A stretch of DNA of 64,000 bases from Escherichia coli (GCF_011045215.1 NZ_CP049201.1), one strand, 5' to 3'; shown: positions 23,515-64,000, counted from the stretch's first letter. The notes: a model not told the origin generated them from the sequence alone. Numbers and translations are program-made.

Positions 23515-23876
23515 TGGATAAAATAAAATCAAATGCGCGTGATTTAAGACGCAATCTCACTTTGCAGGAACGAAAGCTCTGGCGATATCTTCGCAGCCGA
23601 CGTTTTGGTGATTTCAAATTTCGTCGTCAACATCCAGTGGGGAGCTACATTCTCGATTTTGCTTGCTGCTCGGCGCGTGTAGTAGTTGAGCTGGATGGTG
23701 GGCAGCATGATTTGGCAGTTGCCTATGATACCAGGCGCACTAGCTGGCTTGAGTCGCAGGGCTGGACCGTGCTGCGTTTCTGGAATAACGAGATTGATTG
23801 TAATGAGGTGGCGGTGCTGGAGATTATTCTGCAGGAACTGAACCGCCTGTCACCCTCACCCCAACCCTCTCCCTGA
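23514..23876 (+). CDS. ycjD: DUF559 endonuclease-like protein
   Basis: ORF with ATG at 23514 (the ORF-track start at 23511 is a GTG); 120 aa; last codons lie inside a GC-rich repeat. Confidence 0.85.
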   Translation: MDKIKSNARDLRRNLTLQERKLWRYLRSRRFGDFKFRRQHPVGSYILDFACCSARVVVELDGGQHDLAVAYDTRRTSWLESQGWTVLRFWNNEIDCNEVAVLEIILQELNRLSPSPQPSP

Positions 23877-24135
23877 AAGGGCGAGGGGGCCGACCGAGCC
23901 GAATAGCTGTTGTGGTGAAAACATGGAGGCGGATGATGAAGAATATTCGGCAAGGTCTGAACCACCATTCACTCTTACCCCAGCCATCGCCCTGAAAGGG
24001 TTAGGGGGCTGTATAAGCCTGTTTGTTGCTGGGGTGACAATATTTGCACAATACGGTCCCCACGCCCCTCTGGGGAGAGGGTTAGGGTGAGGGGAATAGC
24101 GCCCACCCTGCCGCACCCTGCTCCGGTCGGACCTG
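23851..24135. repeat. Cluster of three GC-rich palindromic extragenic repeat copies (two direct, one inverted), REP-like, possibly box C family
   Basis: CCCTCACCCCAACCCTCTCCCTGAAAGGGCGAGGGGG, a second direct copy at about 23975-24015 and an inverted copy at about 24062-24098. Confidence 0.65.
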
Positions 24136-24258
24136 GCAACTATAGCCACCCACAGCCAGGTTGATTATAATAACCGTTTATCTGTTCGTACTGTTTACTA
24201 AAACGACGAATCGCCTGATTTTCAGGCACAACAAGCATCAACAATAAGGATTAAAGCT

Positions 24259-25047
24259 ATGGGTTTTCTTTCCGGTAAGCGCATTCTGGTAACCGGTGTT
24301 GCCAGCAAACTGTCCATCGCCTACGGTATCGCTCAGGCGATGCACCGCGAAGGAGCTGAACTGGCATTCACCTACCAGAACGACAAACTGAAAGGCCGCG
24401 TAGAAGAATTTGCCGCTCAATTGGGTTCTGACATCGTTCTGCAGTGCGATGTTGCCGAAGATGCCAGCATCGACACCATGTTCGCTGAACTGGGGAAAGT
24501 TTGGCCGAAGTTTGACGGTTTCGTACACTCTATTGGTTTTGCACCTGGCGATCAGCTGGATGGTGACTATGTTAACGCCGTTACTCGTGAAGGCTTCAAA
24601 ATTGCCCACGACATCAGCTCCTACAGCTTCGTTGCAATGGCAAAAGCTTGCCGCTCCATGCTGAATCCGGGTTCTGCCCTGCTGACCCTTTCCTACCTTG
24701 GCGCTGAGCGCGCTATCCCGAACTACAACGTTATGGGTCTGGCAAAAGCGTCTCTGGAAGCGAACGTGCGCTATATGGCGAACGCGATGGGTCCGGAAGG
24801 TGTGCGTGTTAACGCCATCTCTGCTGGTCCGATCCGTACTCTGGCGGCCTCCGGTATCAAAGACTTCCGCAAAATGCTGGCTCATTGCGAAGCCGTTACC
24901 CCGATTCGCCGTACCGTTACTATTGAAGATGTGGGTAACTCTGCGGCATTCCTGTGCTCCGATCTCTCTGTCGGTATCTCCGGTGAAGTGGTCCACGTGG
25001 ACGGCGGTTTCAGCATTGCTGCAATGAACGAACTCGAGCTGAAATAA
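24259..25047 (+). CDS. fabI: Enoyl-ACP reductase (NADH)
   Basis: 262-aa [42 protein letters not shown]. Confidence 0.97.
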
Positions 25048-39465: not shown

Positions 39466-39837
39466 AGCTCCTCCTTAATGACAGGGTTGCGAAGCCCTGA
39501 TTCTCTTCAGGGTGAATATTAAAGATAACACAAACATCGCGTAACGATTTGATAACAACCCAAATTGATAAAAGAGGAGAAACCTTGTGGCAAAGCAAAT
39601 GACAACCCCGCCGCAGCGGGGTCAAGGATCAGTGAGTAATGATCCAGAGGAGTTCGGCCCAGAAGAGCATCGACAGAGAAAACGCGCCCATCCAGGACCA
39701 ATATTTCATATTTGTGTTGATCATAGGCTACACCCTTAACGGTTATTACTTTGTGTTGAGATAACTCAACCTGTTATTGCTGCGGTGTATTAAAAGCCCT
39801 GTAATTCATTAAAAATGGGTAATAAGAATGATGATAA

Positions 39838-52214: not shown

Positions 52215-52259
52215 ATGAAAGCAATTTTCGTACTGAAAGCTTGGTGGCGCACTTCCTGA
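52215..52259 (+). CDS. trpL: trp operon leader peptide (14 aa, tandem Trp codons)
   Basis: ATG AAA GCA ATT TTC GTA CTG AAA GCT TGG TGG CGC ACT TCC TGA = [14 protein letters not shown]. Confidence 0.95.
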   Translation: [14 protein letters not shown]

Positions 52260-52299
52260 AACGGGCAGTGTATTCACCATGCGTAAAGCAATCAGATAC

Positions 52300-52329
52300 C
52301 CAGCCCGCCTAATGAGCGGGCTTTTTTTT
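52300..52329 (+). terminator. trp attenuator (3:4 terminator hairpin)
   Basis: CAGCCCGCC-TAAT-GAGCGGGC followed by eight T residues. Confidence 0.95.
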
Positions 52330-60638: not shown

Positions 60639-60761
60639 TTAAAAACGATATCCTGCTGAGAACATAAACACCCACGGATCGAGGCGTACGCTATCGTGTT
60701 GCTGTGCACCGCCCAGCTTATAATTGGCGGTGGTATCGATATCCATGTACCAGACTGACAT
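60639..60761 (-). pseudogene. ompW: 3'-terminal remnant of the outer membrane protein W gene (last 40 codons)
   Basis: Minus-strand translation MSVWYMDIDTTANYKLGGAQQHDSVRLDPWVFMFSAGYRF-stop matches the OmpW C-terminus; an in-frame stop lies directly upstream (60765-60767), so the N-terminal about 170 codons are absent. Confidence 0.85.
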
Positions 60762-60948
60762 GTTTTAAAAAATGAAATAAGACATTGTATCTGAAAGAAA
60801 AAACAGGATTTTGAGGCGCTTTTTTATACCGTTTCTCCGTGTTTTTAACTGCCTGATTTTATTGAAATCTTTTTTAGTTTTGCAGAAAGGATTTTTTGCT
60901 CGATCGTTTTAATTTTATACATTCCTGATAACGGAAATTTTTTTGCCG

Positions 60949-60978
60949 TTGACAGTTTTTGTTCTCCGGGGCTATATT
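60949..60978 (+). promoter_or_regulatory. Predicted strong sigma-70 promoter inside the prophage terminus
   Basis: TTGACA (60949-60954), 18-nt spacer, TATATT (60973-60978). Confidence 0.55.
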
Positions 60979-60984
60979 CCTCAC

Positions 60985-61064
60985 ACAACCGCAAAATCGG
61001 TTGTCGGGATTGGCGTCCCGGATGTTTACGGAGCGATATAAGACGCGCCCGCGTCTTTTTTCAT
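60985..61064 (+). ncRNA. Candidate prophage-encoded small RNA (about 80 nt: two stem-loops, single-stranded AU-rich tract, intrinsic terminator)
   Basis: Stem-loops ACAACCG-CAAAAT-CGGTTGT (60985-61004) and CGGGA-TTGGCG-TCCCG (61005-61020); terminator AAGACGC-GCCC-GCGTCTT plus TTTTC (61040-61064); no ORF with an RBS. Confidence 0.4.
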
Positions 61065-61224
61065 ATCGTTTGCACAGTCACATTCGCGATTTATGGCGGG
61101 CTGTGTGGGGGAGCCGAAAGGCTCGCCGGTTTCCGTACCCGGTTACGCCAACCCTGCACAGTTCGCCACCAGTTCGATTGGCGTCGTCGGTGGCGATAAT
61201 TTCCAAATGTACGGAGTTATCGTT

Positions 61225-61788
61225 ATGACCACTCAGATTTCTGTCGAAACTCTTTCCCCGATTACACACAATCAAATTCCCGTTATCACTACCGAGTTGC
61301 TGGCGCAGCTTTATGGCACGGACTCAGATAACATCAAAAAGAATTATTCGCGCAACGCAGATCGCTTTTGTGAAGGTAAGCACTTTTACAAGGTGATTGG
61401 CGATGAACTAAAGAATTTGCGGGTGACTTTAAGTCACTCACAAAATCCCATCTCTCCCAAAACTCGCTCCCTCATCCTCTGGACAGAACGCGGCGCAGCC
61501 CGCCATGCCAAAATGCTCGAAACCGATCAGGCGTGGGAAGTGTTCGAAAAACTGGAAGACTGTTATTTCAGCCATAAACAACCACCAGCAACACAAAACT
61601 CCCCCACCCCAAATGATGGATGCGCATTACTGATCCACTTCGATAAACACGGGCAGGTCGAGTTCACGGAAAAAGTCCCCGCCGATGCGATGGTATGCAC
61701 TCTGGAACGGTTTAAATTTTATCTGGAGCAACATGGGTGGATCGTTGCCCGTAAAGAACAATTGGTAGAAAGGTTGATGCGGTTTTAA
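61225..61788 (+). CDS. Prophage accessory (moron) protein with phage antirepressor-like N-terminal domain (ORF6N/Rha/KilA-N type, unverified)
   Basis: 187-aa ORF MTTQISVETLSPITHNQIPVITTELLAQLYGTDSDNIKKNYSRNADRFCEGKHFYKV; GGAG RBS 8 nt upstream; the ORF-track start at 61093 rejected (no RBS, GC-rich structured region). Confidence 0.6.
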   Translation: MTTQISVETLSPITHNQIPVITTELLAQLYGTDSDNIKKNYSRNADRFCEGKHFYKVIGDELKNLRVTLSHSQNPISPKTRSLILWTERGAARHAKMLETDQAWEVFEKLEDCYFSHKQPPATQNSPTPNDGCALLIHFDKHGQVEFTEKVPADAMVCTLERFKFYLEQHGWIVARKEQLVERLMRF

Positions 61789-61796
61789 TGAATGCA

Positions 61797-61826
61797 AAAC
61801 CCCGGATGATCACCGGGGTTGATTTT
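61797..61826. terminator. Bidirectional terminator between the moron gene and tfa
   Basis: AACCCCGG-ATGATCA-CCGGGGTT followed by GATTTT. Confidence 0.75.
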
Positions 61827-62403
61827 ATCGAGGATGATTGCCGCTAATCGTCATCTCTCTGATTGAGAGTAAATCATCCAAGTTATTCAGCTCTTGCTTC
61901 ATCTCCCGCTGGCGGCGATAAATCTCGTCATTGCGATCGACCTGCGCCTGAACCATTGCAGTAAGCAGCTCATCCAGTTGTTGCATTGACAACTTTACCT
62001 GCTGATTTTCCGCATCGCGCCATACCATGGTTTTCCGTGCCGTGACTGATTTTGCTGATATCACCACCGGGTAAAGACGGGCCATCGAATCCGGTCCCCC
62101 GTTCCAGCTATGACCGTTCCATTCAAAAATGAATGGCTGCGCCTCCTGCTCTGTACGCCATGCTTCAATTTCCCGGCGTTTGGCTGCTTTTGCTGCTTCC
62201 AGCATCTCTGGCGTGACGGTGAACGGCGTTATTTCTCCCCACTTGCCGCTTTGCAGTTCCTGCCAGACTCGCTGCCCTGTCTCTGCTGTATCCGTGGCAG
62301 TTGCCGTATACGGAACCGGTTCATCCATGCCATCAAACAACACCCCGCAGTCAATCGCGCCATTTTCAAGATAACGCGCATTTTCGATGCGTTTTATTTC
62401 CAT
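61825..62403 (-). CDS. Putative tail fibre assembly/chaperone protein
   Basis: 192-aa ORF (ATG at 62403, AGGTG RBS) starting 8 nt after the stf stop; MEIKRIENARYLENGAIDCGVLFDG...; not the lambda Tfa family as far as I can judge. Confidence 0.5.
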   Translation of the reverse strand: MEIKRIENARYLENGAIDCGVLFDGMDEPVPYTATATDTAETGQRVWQELQSGKWGEITPFTVTPEMLEAAKAAKRREIEAWRTEQEAQPFIFEWNGHSWNGGPDSMARLYPVVISAKSVTARKTMVWRDAENQQVKLSMQQLDELLTAMVQAQVDRNDEIYRRQREMKQELNNLDDLLSIREMTISGNHPR

Positions 62404-62410
62404 AAAACAC

Positions 62411-63835
62411 CTACGCAATACGTATGAACAAACCAATCATGACACTGGCTGACCCGGCAGACCCGAGTTCATCGCCTGACAGTGCACGATATGACCCCGG
62501 CATACCACCACCAGAACCCCGCACATATACGGAAACGCTGCCGTTATATCCAACCCCGCTACCGGTCGTGCCGTAACACATAAATTCAACCGCACTCAGG
62601 CGTGACCCCGGATAACTGTAACCGCGCTTTATCCGGCGGTCGGTGTCTGCGTCTCCCTTACCGTTATAAGCCGCCAGTACAAGACTGCCTGCACCGTACC
62701 AGCCGTCCGTGGTACCGGGAGCAATACCGGACAGAAGAGAGATAATGTCCTGTGAGGTAATCTTCAGATTTTCCCAGCCAGTCAGATAACCATTACCTGT
62801 TGTCCAGTAGCGGCTGTAATAAACATCGCCATTGATACCGTAGAAAATAATGGCCTTTGGTGTATATCGCGGTTCCGGTGGATTATTGCGTGCCTCAACC
62901 CACCGGATGCTGACCACCCCGTTAAACAACACACCTCCGGATATGATTTTACTGCCACCCTCAACAAAATATTCACCCGGCGTCGCATTCCTTACCCATG
63001 CCAGAAAATCATCCTCTGTGTTAAAACGGATGCGTTCTGCGGGCAGAAAAATATGCCCAAAACCAAATGCGCCAGGTGTCGCCAGACGGCCTTCAGTCCG
63101 GTCGCGAATGTCGCTCTGTGGCGTCATTGTGGCTGCGCTTTTCAGTCCAAGATTATCACGGGATTCCTGCTGAGCCTCTTCACCTTCATCAGCCAGCTCT
63201 GATAAACGATTCGCCGTTTTCAGTGTCGCAGATAACGCGGTGTCAATATCCTCCCTGACATGCTCTGCATCAGATGCAGCCTGTTTAGCAGCTTCAGCGT
63301 CCTTTTTTACCTCCTCGGCGGCATTCTCAACCTGTGAGACCAGATTTTCGGCCTGTTGTTTACCCTCCGCAACCGCGTCGGCGTTCTGCTGAACACCTTC
63401 CGCCAGTTTTTTTACCTCTTCTTTTTCCCGAGCGGCAGCGTCTGCATGTTGCCCTGCCTGTCGTTCGCTTTCTGTTGCAGTTTCCGCGCTCTGCTGCGCC
63501 TGCGCCACCAGTTCTTCGAACCGCTTAACAACATCCGGCTTCAGGTCGCCTTCATCGAGGGCAGTCAGAAAGTCGTTCAGCGTGCCAGGCTTTGAGTCGT
63601 CGTAAACCGAAATATCACCGACACAGTATTCCCTTTCAATACACGACCGAAGATAAACGTCATATTTTCCGGTCTGAGCTTCAAAAGCATATTCTCCTGC
63701 CGGACCTGTCACCACTGTCGCCACCGTTCTCATGACCACTGCGGATGTATTCTGTCTGGCTTTCAGAATAATATGGTATCCGGACATGGGGAGTCCCGCG
63801 CCATCCGTCAGCACACCCGAAATTAATACAGACAT
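62411..63835 (-). CDS. Side tail fibre protein (lambda Stf-like N-terminus, Ala-rich coiled-coil middle, Gly-rich C-terminal domain)
   Basis: 474-aa ORF MSVLISGVLTDGAGLPMSGYHIILKARQNTSAVVMRTV...VYDDSKPGTLNDFL aligns by eye with lambda Stf MAVKISGVLKDGTGKPVQNCTIQLKARRNSTTVVVNTV...VYEDSQPGTLNDFL. Confidence 0.85.
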   Translation of the reverse strand: MSVLISGVLTDGAGLPMSGYHIILKARQNTSAVVMRTVATVVTGPAGEYAFEAQTGKYDVYLRSCIEREYCVGDISVYDDSKPGTLNDFLTALDEGDLKPDVVKRFEELVAQAQQSAETATESERQAGQHADAAAREKEEVKKLAEGVQQNADAVAEGKQQAENLVSQVENAAEEVKKDAEAAKQAASDAEHVREDIDTALSATLKTANRLSELADEGEEAQQESRDNLGLKSAATMTPQSDIRDRTEGRLATPGAFGFGHIFLPAERIRFNTEDDFLAWVRNATPGEYFVEGGSKIISGGVLFNGVVSIRWVEARNNPPEPRYTPKAIIFYGINGDVYYSRYWTTGNGYLTGWENLKITSQDIISLLSGIAPGTTDGWYGAGSLVLAAYNGKGDADTDRRIKRGYSYPGSRLSAVEFMCYGTTGSGVGYNGSVSVYVRGSGGGMPGSYRALSGDELGSAGSASVMIGLFIRIA

Positions 63836-64000
63836 TTTTATTTCCTGATTCAGAAAACATTAACCAAAATAATTGACGCCTTTTTTCTTGCCACTGGCTT
63901 TCCCCTTTGCAGAAATATCCGTGGCCAGCGACAGATTCAGCGAAAATCCCTGCACCGGTGACAACGAAAATTCCACTGACTCTGCCTGCCAGTTATGGTC

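What the first reader, a model, noticed from the sequence alone, without database searches (positions are those of the whole stretch)
61225..61788. Moron gene between the tail-fibre module and the attachment junction, with antirepressor-like N-terminus and unrecognised C-terminal half
The 187-aa protein lies where lambdoid phages carry lysogenic-conversion, exclusion or defence cargo, is transcribed opposite to the late genes, and has its own terminator. Its N-terminal 70 residues (TTELLAQLYGTDSDNIKKNYSRNADRFCEGKHFYKVIGDELKNL) resemble the DNA-binding module of ORF6N/Rha/KilA-N antirepressors; the C-terminal half (about residues 110-187, cysteine-containing) matches nothing I recognise. The domain assignment is from memory of motifs, not from a search.
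Basis: partly seen in the sequence, partly recalled or inferred. Interest (0 to 1): 0.5.

Follow-up and report, generated by a model that had tools for sequence, protein, structure and literature searches.

The report
RNA-gated prophage antirepressor gene (AnrP-like)
The 187-aa gene is real and intact, but it is a phage antirepressor sitting behind two known small regulatory RNAs, a close copy of the Salmonella Gifsy-1 isrK-anrP / phage P1 immI switch that helps a prophage wake up, and not unknown defence or conversion cargo, so it is an ordinary member of a known kind.

Summary
The ORF at 61225-61788 (+) exists as described: 187 aa, ORF6N domain at residues 12-97, its own terminator, convergent with the tail-fibre assembly gene, 460 bp from a prophage/ompW junction. 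The 'moron/defence cargo' reading is not supported.

It runs: near-consensus promoter, IsrK-type sRNA (Rfam RF01394/RF03163) with terminator, C4-type antisense RNA (RF01695), then the ORF.

The protein is a same-length homologue (54% identity, E 7e-65) of Gifsy-1 AnrP, whose expression induces that prophage. Its ORF6N domain is 59% identical to the central domain of P1-type Ant.

Across about 50 related leaders, the two C4 recognition sites co-vary with two targets in IsrK and two targets just upstream of the ORF. One of the latter overlaps its Shine-Dalgarno sequence. This supports antisense control of translation.

The 'unrecognised' C-terminal half is a small, purifying-selected domain (dN/dS 0.1-0.3). 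It has no Pfam or PDB match but recurs on ORF6N-, Rha- and AntA-type antirepressors.

Three features differ from Gifsy-1. The cassette sits at the att end rather than next to Q. The upstream orf45-like frame is fused in frame, so there is no AUGA coupling. There is no isrJ.

Verdict: new member of a known kind, low-moderate interest.

The parts
60639..60764 (-). Displaced 3' fragment of host ompW. Host homology ends at 60764, which marks the prophage/chromosome junction.
   Evidence: blastn to K-12 ompW region. RefSeq annotates the same fragment as partial OmpW in strain C5.
60765..60948 (.). AT-rich (29% GC) outermost prophage DNA between the junction and the cassette promoter. It is presumably an att arm. 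No convincing ORF or LexA box was found.
60949..60978 (+). Sigma-70-type promoter, TTGACA-18 nt-TATATT (11 of 12 matches). The -35 and -10 elements are conserved in the related leaders.
   Evidence: Invariant columns in the 4-way alignment, and 60+ leaders share TTGAC...GGGGCTATATTCC.
60985..61061 (+). IsrK-type 77-nt sRNA. It carries the decoy/target sites b1 (UUGGCGU, 61010-61016) and a1 (UACGGA, 61027-61032) and ends in a Rho-independent terminator (61040-61057 plus a U-run). It overlaps the Rfam c4-a1b1 match at 60972-61024.
   Evidence: Rfam RF01394 75.2 bits (gathering 50) and RF03163 48.6 bits (gathering 46.7). Terminator. Coordinates.
61089..61173 (+). C4-type antisense RNA. Its recognition loop is a' (UCCGUAC, 61132-61138) and its single-stranded site is b' (ACGCCAA, 61145-61151). 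It has a tRNA-like GCCACCA 3' end at 61165-61171.
   Evidence: Rfam RF01695 77.6 bits (gathering 45), full-length model match. Folds as the model's long stem with two internal hairpins.
61093..61224 (+). Reading frame equivalent to Gifsy-1 orf45; it starts inside C4. Here it runs in frame into the ORF without a stop, giving a potential 231-aa isoform. The AUGA stop/start coupling of Gifsy-1 is therefore absent.
   Evidence: Of 53 unique leaders, 40 stop early, 7 are AUGA-coupled, 4 are in-frame (including the window) and 2 are other.
61178..61216 (+). Target region for C4 on the mRNA: b2 (UUGGCGU, 61178-61184) and a2 (GUACGGA, 61209-61215). a2 overlaps the Shine-Dalgarno GGAG (61213-61216). 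The region also folds into a local hairpin that pairs the SD.
   Evidence: Three-way covariation of a and b sites across 53 leaders. Local folds. Coordinates.
61225..61788 (+). 187-aa AnrP/Ant-type antirepressor gene. It has an ORF6N domain (residues 12-97, extending structurally to about 116), a disordered linker (118-129), and a small C-terminal domain (about 130-187) built as a beta-hairpin plus two helices.
61798..61820 (.). GC-rich hairpin (AACCCCGG-ATGATCA-CCGGGGTT) flanked by T-runs on both strands. It is a shared terminator for the ORF and the convergent tfa gene.
61825..62436 (-). Tail-fibre assembly-type gene (DUF4376; PHROG 1141), convergent with the ORF. Listed as context, not part of the cassette.
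62411..63835 (-). Prophage tail-fibre gene (PHROG 2636). Listed as context.

Best explanation
The ORF encodes a phage antirepressor of the AnrP/Ant class. It is the protein output of an autonomous, RNA-gated induction switch at the outer end of a prophage integrated in ompW.

Proposed mechanism:
1. A near-consensus promoter at 60949-60978 makes a 77-nt IsrK-type sRNA that mostly terminates at 61057.
2. Read-through transcripts continue through a C4-type antisense RNA (61089-61173) into the ORF.
3. The C4 RNA uses two recognition elements, loop a' (UCCGUAC) and single-stranded b' (ACGCCAA). These pair with b2 (61178-61184) and a2 (61209-61215) on the mRNA.
4. a2 overlaps the ORF's Shine-Dalgarno sequence, so C4 keeps translation off.
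5. IsrK carries a second copy of the same two targets (b1, a1). It can therefore compete for or re-fold C4, and when it predominates the ORF is translated.
6. The protein then inactivates the prophage's repressor, or otherwise de-represses the early operon, and promotes induction.

Shown here: the identity and arrangement of all parts, homology to AnrP and to P1-type Ant, covariation of the pairing sites, and purifying selection on both protein halves.

Inferred: that C4 represses and IsrK de-represses in this locus, that the protein acts on a repressor, and that the variable C-terminal domain is the target-recognition part.
For: RNA elements:
- IsrK, c4-a1b1 and C4 all score above Rfam gathering thresholds, in the canonical order upstream of the ORF.
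- The same triplet precedes Gifsy-1 anrP and the icd-ant operon of a P1-like plasmid.

Protein homology:
- Same length as Gifsy-1 AnrP/STM2616 (187 aa), 54% identical, E 7e-65.
- Full-length PHROG 2379 'anti-repressor'.
- The ORF6N domain is 59% identical to residues 122-229 of P1-type Ant, E 3e-38.

Experimental precedent:
- In Gifsy-1 the isrK promoter drives anrP, IsrK in trans switches on AnrP translation, and AnrP expression raises antQ operon mRNA and induces the prophage (PMC4825925).
- In P1 the c4 RNA represses synthesis of the Ant antirepressor (PMC8546580).

Covariation across 53 parsed leaders:
- At least 6 b-types and at least 8 a-types change together at three places: IsrK, C4 and the ORF's 5' UTR.
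- Cognate complementarity is 6-7 nt; non-cognate is 3.3-4.4 nt.
- In most of the variants tabulated, a2 ends 6-16 nt before the ATG and is at or abutting the SD. In some it lies just upstream of the SD, in one (L041) just downstream, and for one type (L011) no convincing a2 match was found.

Other support:
- The leader folds far better than shuffles (z = -5.25).
- Coding constraint: dN/dS is 0.10-0.29 on residues 117-187 and lower on residues 1-31 and 82-116.
- Context in a complete relative: the STEC308 ompW prophage has the same att-end cassette. It also has a 135-aa HTH repressor homologous to Gifsy-1 GfoR (E 2e-10), the non-cleavable class that is inactivated by antirepressors (PMC3121763).
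Against: - No ORF6N/AnrP-type protein has been shown to bind a repressor. The Gifsy-1 authors infer it from induction and antQ mRNA increases.
- The published Gifsy-1 mechanism depends on orf45-anrP AUGA coupling. That is absent here because the frame is fused, so the details cannot simply be transferred.
- Simple duplex-energy calculations did not separate the real targets from shuffles convincingly.
- The window does not contain the repressor or the rest of the prophage, so it is unknown whether there is anything left to induce.
- The closest DNA relative (strain C5, 99.7% identity) carries a frameshifted copy in a prophage remnant.
- Nothing here shows that the promoter is active or how it is regulated. 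No LexA box was found.
Confidence: 0.7

Rival explanations
1. The protein is a DNA-binding transcription factor (Rha/ORF6N-type) that directly activates or derepresses phage promoters by binding DNA, rather than binding a repressor protein. The RNA gating would be as in the main explanation.
Against: The domain family is found throughout proteins with genetically defined antirepressor activity (P1 Ant; PHROG names). The related prophage has a Gifsy-type repressor that is known to be removed by protein-protein binding. No operator-like repeats were identified.
Confidence: 0.2
2. One reading: the gene is a moron whose product benefits the lysogen (superinfection exclusion, defence or conversion) and is not needed for the phage's own cycle.
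For: It is an autonomous unit with promoter-like and terminator-like sites at the prophage end, transcribed against the late genes. There are weak domain-level hits of the ORF6N region to PADLOC 'PDC-S05' candidate-defence models (E 4e-8, residues 20-110 only). In STEC308 the cassette is a second copy besides the one next to Q, so it could have diverged in role.
Against: There is full-length homology to AnrP, whose known effect is prophage induction. C4/IsrK control is typical of immI-type antirepressor operons. The PADLOC hits cover only the shared N-domain and come from uncharacterised candidates. There was no NCBIfam hit, and nothing in the PHROG, PADLOC, Pfam or PDB sequence searches named a toxin or effector domain.
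Confidence: 0.07
3. The cassette is a functionless relic: an intact-looking leftover at the end of a decaying prophage, no longer connected to any repressor.
For: The 99.7%-identical copy in strain C5 is frameshifted and sits in a remnant flanked by partial tail-fibre-assembly genes. In THO-015-type strains the same site holds a remnant with pseudogenised neighbours. The window shows only about 3.2 kb of the prophage.
Against: In the window, the ORF, both RNAs, the promoter, the SD, all four target sites and the terminator are intact. The neighbouring tfa and tail-fibre genes are full-length. Homologues are under purifying selection. 191 of 5426 complete E. coli genomes keep this junction-plus-leader.
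Confidence: 0.1

Closest known systems
Gifsy-1 isrK-orf45-anrP locus of Salmonella Typhimurium (Hershko-Shalev et al. 2016, PMC4825925)
   Same: Same order of parts: promoter, IsrK sRNA with terminator, C4-like RNA (STnc1160), then a 187-aa ORF6N protein. The protein is 54% identical over its full length, with residues 1-27 and 82-116 identical. The pairing logic between IsrK, C4 and the mRNA is the same.
   Different: - The recognition code differs: the a site is UACGGA here and UCACCG in Gifsy-1.
- The orf45-equivalent is fused in frame instead of ending in AUGA.
- There is no isrJ downstream.
- The cassette sits at the att end, convergent with tfa, rather than beside the Q antiterminator gene.
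- The C-terminal domain is a diverged variant ('HGW' versus 'DSGW' type).
immI operon of phages P1/P7 (c4 antisense RNA - icd - ant1/ant2)
   Same: A C4 antisense RNA is preceded by a1/b1 sites and followed by a2/b2 sites at a ribosome-binding site. A P1-like plasmid gives Rfam isrK and C4 hits in the same order. The ORF6N domain of the window protein is 59% identical to the central part of the 372-aa P1-type Ant. c4 RNA represses Ant synthesis, and Ant inactivates the repressor. The processing of C4 by RNase P and the a'/b' nomenclature are from my own knowledge of Citron & Schuster 1990/1992.
   Different: There is no icd gene: only 51 nt separate C4 from the ORF, so C4 targets the antirepressor's own SD. 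The protein is half the size and lacks the KilA-C domain, carrying a different small C-terminal domain instead. The host element is a chromosomal integrating prophage, not a plasmid prophage. C1/Op51-type promoter control was not examined.
Antirepressors of Stx phages (e.g. PA28, Phi24B Ant) and P22 Ant
   Same: Stx-phage Ant genes sit behind the same leader (79% nt identity) and share the ORF6N head (about 63% identity over residues 1-157). Phi24B Ant promotes efficient induction (PMC3064807).
   Different: Those proteins are 224-240 aa, with a roughly 110-aa C-terminal domain that I take to be the one the Phi24B paper reports as shared with P22 Ant. I did not compare it with P22 Ant or confirm that Phi24B Ant belongs to this group. 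They lie in the nin/Q region. From my own knowledge, not examined here, P22 ant is controlled by Mnt/Arc and sar RNA rather than by C4.
LexA-controlled small antirepressors (GfoA/GftA, 186 Tum)
   Same: Same proposed end-point: inactivation of a non-cleavable prophage repressor encoded elsewhere in the prophage.
   Different: Those proteins are described in that paper as small antirepressors under direct LexA control. I did not compare them with the window protein. No LexA box is present at this promoter.

Membership tests
Pfam ORF6N (PF10543) domain proteins | Significant match to the ORF6N profile | tested here: met
   Residues 12-97 match model positions 3-86 of 86, E 1.8e-20. RefSeq names homologues 'ORF6N domain-containing protein'.
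IsrK-anrP type cassette (Gifsy-1) | IsrK sRNA with its own promoter and Rho-independent terminator immediately upstream | tested here: met
   RF01394 75.2 bits versus gathering 50. Promoter matches 11 of 12 positions. Terminator at 61040-61057.
IsrK-anrP type cassette (Gifsy-1) | C4-like RNA (STnc1160) between IsrK and the protein gene, complementary to IsrK | tested here: met
   RF01695 77.6 bits versus gathering 45. The b1/b' and a1/a' complementarity co-varies across loci.
IsrK-anrP type cassette (Gifsy-1) | Downstream protein homologous to AnrP over its full length | tested here: met
   187 aa versus 187 aa, 54% identity, E 7e-65.
IsrK-anrP type cassette (Gifsy-1) | orf45 translationally coupled to anrP through an overlapping AUGA | tested here: not met
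   The ATG at 61093 is in frame with the ORF and no stop intervenes. Only 7 of 53 leaders have AUGA, so this feature is not general to the family.
IsrK-anrP type cassette (Gifsy-1) | Location beside the Q-type antiterminator gene, with isrJ downstream | tested here: not met
   The neighbours are the ompW junction and tfa. There is no isrJ hit. Gifsy-1 has both features.
IsrK-anrP type cassette (Gifsy-1) | Expression of the protein induces the resident prophage or de-represses its early operon | not testable with these tools
   Known only for Gifsy-1 AnrP.
P1/P7 immI operon | C4 antisense RNA with a'/b' sites matching a2/b2 at a downstream RBS | tested here: met
   a' UCCGUAC pairs with a2 GUACGGA, which overlaps the SD. 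b' ACGCCAA pairs with b2 UUGGCGU. Covariation.
P1/P7 immI operon | icd gene between c4 and ant | tested here: not met
   Only 51 nt lie between C4 (ends 61173) and the ATG at 61225. A P1-like plasmid has icd.
P1/P7 immI operon | Ant protein with a KilA-C domain, about 370 aa | tested here: not met
   Pfam finds only ORF6N. Similarity to P1-type Ant is limited to its residues 122-229.
Moron (autonomous accessory gene of a prophage) | Own promoter and terminator, inserted at a module boundary or prophage end | tested here: met
   Consensus scans only. The position is next to the junction.
Moron (autonomous accessory gene of a prophage) | Function serves the host (conversion, exclusion or defence) rather than phage regulation | tested here: inconclusive
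   All strong homology points to phage regulation. The only contrary signal is weak domain-level PADLOC PDC-S05 hits.

The most novel reading that the evidence does not exclude
The IsrK/C4 leader may be a programmable two-site RNA lock (at least 8 a-codes by at least 6 b-codes, freely recombined) placed in front of interchangeable antirepressor cassettes. The att-end copy seen here would then be a second, orthogonally locked copy of the prophage's own antirepressor.

In the complete STEC308 ompW prophage, two cassettes encode proteins with essentially identical C-terminal domains but different a and b codes. Under this reading the small C-terminal domain is the repressor-recognition module. 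The att-end copy would let a different signal trigger induction, for example an IsrK-type sRNA with a matching code from a co-resident or incoming phage. That would amount to RNA-level prophage crosstalk.
Probability: 0.2. Interest if true: 0.55.

Novelty: new member of a known kind. Interest (0 to 1): 0.25.

Why it matters
By itself this locus adds little. It is another copy of a regulatory cassette already studied in Gifsy-1 and P1, and it is present in this same position in about 3.5% of complete E. coli genomes.

Its value is practical and comparative:
- It corrects the reading of such 'hypothetical/ORF6N' genes at prophage ends from cargo to induction switch. This bears on prophage stability in E. 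coli and its relatives, where the same leader precedes the Ant genes of Stx phages.
- It shows that the Gifsy-1 orf45 coupling model is not general, whereas C4 pairing at or next to the antirepressor's own Shine-Dalgarno sequence is the more widely conserved feature, seen in most of the variants tabulated.
- It singles out an uncharacterised, frequently swapped roughly 60-aa C-terminal domain as the obvious candidate for repressor recognition.
- It flags that gene callers routinely translate the C4/IsrK RNAs into 'ash family' or extended 'regulator' proteins.

Tried and rejected
- NCBIfam: no family for the protein.
- PDB by sequence profile: only chance-level hits, E>0.5.
- Foldseek of the full AF2 model against PDB: nothing below E 0.97.
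- phmmer of the C-terminal 72 aa against 1.8 billion representatives: 15 hits.
- Profile search with 12 diverse C-terminal domains: 57 mostly fragmentary hits. Neither of these two searches returned a hit with a Pfam annotation on the C-terminal region.
- LexA-box search: only a chance-level 1-mismatch site, 140 nt upstream of the -35 element. SOS control like GfoA/Tum is therefore rejected.
- RNAduplex energies of C4 against its targets versus mononucleotide shuffles were not convincingly discriminating (18 and 73 of 500 shuffles did as well). I relied on cross-locus covariation instead.
- An alternative start at ATG 61207 (MYGVIV...) was rejected. It has no SD, and homologues start at MTTQ.
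- Marker search for where the cassette sits in IMG/VR contigs: mostly near Q/NinG/Roi, and almost never near tail-fibre genes. However, many loci were too short to tell.
- I could not obtain the rest of this prophage. The exact genome is not in the complete-E. coli collection; the best match is 99.7% identity over the cassette only.

Full report
OBSERVATION

The window carries trpB, trpA, yciG, yciF and yciE on the + strand, followed by the last 126 nt of ompW on the - strand (60639-60764). Homology to E. coli K-12 stops at 60764, so everything to the right is inserted DNA.

The inserted DNA visible in the window (60765-64000) contains:
- the ORF of the finding;
- a convergent DUF4376/tail-fibre-assembly gene (61825-62436, -);
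- a tail-fibre gene (62411-63835, -).

The ORF is exactly as described: ATG 61225, stop 61786-61788, 187 aa, with GGAG 8 nt upstream. A GC-rich hairpin at 61798-61820 can terminate both convergent genes.

The open frame actually extends upstream to an ATG at 61093 (231 aa). Homologues, however, begin at the MTTQISVETL methionine.

The 276 bp upstream of the ORF are not spacer. Rfam finds three families above their curated thresholds, all on the + strand:

| Element | Rfam family | Coordinates | Bits |
|---|---|---|---|
| c4-a1b1 | RF03163 | 60972-61024 | 48.6 |
| isrK | RF01394 | 60985-61061 | 75.2 |
| C4 antisense RNA | RF01695 | 61089-61173 | 77.6 |

A promoter matching the consensus at 11 of 12 positions (TTGACA-18-TATATT, 60949-60978) sits just before isrK. 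A strong intrinsic terminator (61040-57 plus U6) ends it.

The complete unit therefore runs: promoter, IsrK-type sRNA, C4-type RNA, ORF, terminator.

IDENTITY OF THE PROTEIN

- Pfam gives ORF6N for residues 12-97 (E 1.8e-20).
- PHROG 2379 'anti-repressor' matches end to end (1-187 of 187, E 3.9e-89).
- Gifsy-1 STM2616, which is AnrP of Hershko-Shalev et al., is also 187 aa and aligns over its full length (54% identity, E 7e-65). Residues 1-27 and 82-116 are identical.
- Gifsy-1 has the same three Rfam elements upstream of it, plus isrJ downstream.
- A P1-like plasmid shows isrK-like RNA, C4, icd, then a 372-aa KilAC Ant. Residues 122-229 of that Ant are 59% identical to the window protein's ORF6N domain (E 3e-38).
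- The Stx-phage Ant genes lie behind a 79%-identical leader.

The locus is thus a member of the C4-controlled antirepressor cassettes typified by P1 immI and Gifsy-1 isrK-anrP.

WHAT IS KNOWN EXPERIMENTALLY ABOUT THOSE RELATIVES

In Gifsy-1 (PMC4825925):
- the isrK promoter transcribes anrP, but the read-through mRNA is translationally silent;
- IsrK supplied in trans activates translation of orf45 and, through an AUGA overlap, of anrP;
- AnrP expression raises antQ-operon mRNA and induces the prophage.

In P1, the c4 RNA represses synthesis of the Ant1/Ant2 antirepressor (PMC8546580).

From my own knowledge of Citron & Schuster and Heinrich et al.: C4 is cut out of the operon transcript by RNase P, and its a' and b' sites pair with a2/b2 at the icd RBS.

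HOW THIS COPY MOST LIKELY WORKS

I collected 120 IMG/VR loci through the invariant -10 region and parsed 53 distinct leaders.

The two C4 recognition elements vary between loci, and they do so together with two targets in IsrK and two targets between C4 and the ORF:
- At least six b-types occur, for example UUGGCGU/ACGCCAA, UUAGCAC/GUGCUAA and UUGGAAC/GUUCCAA.
- At least eight a-types occur, for example UACGGA/UCCGUA here, UCACCG/CGGUGA in Gifsy-1, AAAAAGG/CCUUUUU in PA28, and UCGAAAC/GUUUCGA.
- The a and b types are combined freely.
- Cognate complementarity averages 6.0-7.1 nt. Between loci of different type it averages 3.3-4.4 nt.

In the window:
- a' (61132-38) matches a1 (61027-32) and a2 (61209-15);
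- b' (61145-51) matches b1 (61010-16) and b2 (61178-84).

In most of the variants tabulated, a2 ends 6-16 nt before the start codon, at or abutting the antirepressor's Shine-Dalgarno sequence. It usually straddles the loop and 3' arm of a local hairpin. In some variants it lies just upstream of the SD, in L041 it lies between the SD and the ATG, and for the L011 type no convincing a2 match was found.

The simplest reading is the P1 one. C4 occludes the RBS. IsrK carries the same sites and acts as competitor or refolding partner, which fits its activating role in Gifsy-1.

The Gifsy-1 orf45 coupling cannot apply here. The orf45-equivalent ATG (61093, inside C4) reads in frame into the ORF. Across the 53 leaders that frame behaves inconsistently:

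| Behaviour of the orf45-like frame | Leaders |
|---|---|
| Stops early | 40 |
| AUGA-coupled (Gifsy-1 type) | 7 |
| Fused in frame (window type) | 4 |
| Other | 2 |

The Gifsy-1 authors also noted that nucleotide conservation, and not amino-acid conservation, marks this region. It is the RNA that is conserved.

THE C-TERMINAL HALF

AlphaFold2 (35-sequence alignment, mean pLDDT 80.9) gives two domains joined by a disordered linker at 118-129.

The C-terminal domain has these properties:
- Modelled alone it reaches pLDDT 86.6 and forms a beta-hairpin followed by two helices.
- It is nevertheless a real, selected and recurrent module. dN/dS is 0.10-0.29.
- It matches PHROGs 25059, 22471, 995 and 340.
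- It occurs in at least five diverged forms behind the same leader, all sharing a G-W...L motif.
- It is also found fused to Rha-type heads (P0131, P0134, L041) and to an AntA-type head (P0132).
- At this same ompW position, many E. coli strains carry a Rha head on an essentially identical C-terminal domain behind a 95%-identical leader.
- Its two cysteines are not conserved as a pair, so there is no sign of a metal site.

In the complete ompW prophage of strain STEC308 there are two cassettes, one at the att end and one next to Q. Their proteins are 81% identical overall and virtually identical from residue 112 onward. Their RNA codes differ at both sites.

That prophage's repressor is a 135-aa HTH protein related to Gifsy-1 GfoR (E 2e-10). 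This is the class that is not cleaved but is removed by antirepressors (PMC3121763).

These facts make the C-terminal domain the best candidate for the part that recognises the phage's own repressor. That is inference, not demonstration.

COMPARISON AND MEMBERSHIP

Features of the IsrK-anrP/immI class that are met:
- the promoter;
- IsrK with its terminator;
- C4;
- paired target sites at the RBS;
- an AnrP homologue.

Features that are not met:
- AUGA coupling;
- isrJ;
- the Q-adjacent position;
- icd;
- the KilA-C domain.

The unmet features are details of individual relatives. They do not define the class. SOS control is unlikely, as no LexA box was found.

The 'moron' label fits the cassette's autonomy and its position. 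It does not fit its predicted role. The only defence-like signal is a weak hit of the shared N-domain to uncharacterised PADLOC candidates.

LIMITS

- Nothing here shows expression, repressor binding or induction.
- The prophage beyond 64000 is unseen.
- The nearest DNA relative (strain C5) has a frameshifted copy in a remnant.
- 'Lambdoid' is unverified. A related tail-fibre pair occurs in a lambda-like siphovirus prophage, whereas the STEC308 ompW prophage combines a lambda-like head and early region with contractile-tail genes.

VERDICT

The thing is an RNA-gated antirepressor cassette of a known kind in a less usual position. The junction plus leader is present in 191 of 5426 complete E. 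coli genomes. Interest is low to moderate.

Noticed in passing
window 61093-61224; L129:3011-3286; P0002, P0124, P0132, P0134: Gene callers translate the IsrK/C4 RNA region into protein. RefSeq annotates an 'ash family protein' over the two RNAs. 230-280-aa 'proteins' start with the C4 translation (MxGxxGEPxGSP...). The 44-aa translation of the window's C4 region hits internal parts of PHROGs 3960, 821, 995 and 4908, which are labelled 'transcriptional regulator'. These family models probably contain non-coding sequence.
   Followed up: partly
L127 (E. coli STEC308, NZ_CP091020.1 2921000-2970000): 1062-1850 and 23716-24544: One roughly 40-kb ompW prophage carries two IsrK-C4-ORF6N cassettes, one at the att end and one next to Q. 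The proteins share an essentially identical C-terminal domain. The RNA recognition codes differ at both sites: AAAAAGG/UUGGUCU versus UACGGA/UUAGCAC.
   Followed up: partly
window 60639-60764; L127:41043-41681: The prophage integrates inside ompW, at about nt 514 of 639. In the complete relative, the int-proximal end carries a replacement 3' part, so ompW is annotated as intact there. The fragment in the window is the displaced original 3' end.
   Followed up: partly
window 61225-61317 (residues 1-31): The first 31 residues (MTTQISVETLSPITHNQIPVITTELLAQLYG) are almost invariant in protein sequence across cassettes, while synonymous sites are saturated (dS 0.8 to incalculable). This is very strong protein-level constraint on a segment that lies partly outside the Pfam domain. 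The reason is unknown.
   Followed up: no
L001 (E. coli C5, NZ_CP010122.1 3253104-3260750): The closest relative of the cassette (99.7% nt identity) has a frameshifted ORF. It is followed by two partial DUF4376 genes in opposite orientation, then tRNA-Ser and hyaA. That looks like a prophage remnant joined to a distant chromosomal region, suggesting a rearrangement between prophages.
   Followed up: no
L129 (E. coli THO-015, NZ_AP022549.1 2677971-2684822): In this strain trpA is followed directly by the ompW fragment, so yciG-yciF-yciE are missing. The att-end cassette there has a Rha-family head on the same C-terminal domain as the window protein. Several hundred of the 1,385 matching records seem to be of this type (417 records fall in the 95-99% identity band, but only nine of them were actually listed).
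   Followed up: no
L039 and L067 (second leader): In two IMG/VR loci the leader breaks off after b1/a1 and continues with unrelated sequence (...GAAATGAGGTGTACTGGCAATAGCGGACAC...). This is probably an insertion that separates IsrK from C4 and the antirepressor gene.
   Followed up: no
window 61225-61554 (residues 20-110): There are weak hits of the ORF6N domain to three PADLOC 'PDC-S05' candidate-defence models (best E 4e-8). They are domain-level only, and their meaning is unclear.
   Followed up: no
window 39595-39797 (-) and 52236-52329 (+): Ordinary chromosomal RNAs were found in the whole-window Rfam scan: sRNA STnc180 (200 bits) and the trp operon leader (91 bits).
   Followed up: no
L126 (E. 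coli 2013C-3264, ssrA locus): A 93.7%-identical tail-fibre + DUF4376 pair ends a lambda-like prophage at ssrA, downstream of gpJ, lom, stf and tfa, with no antirepressor cassette. The cassette and the tail-fibre pair are therefore independently assorting modules.
   Followed up: no
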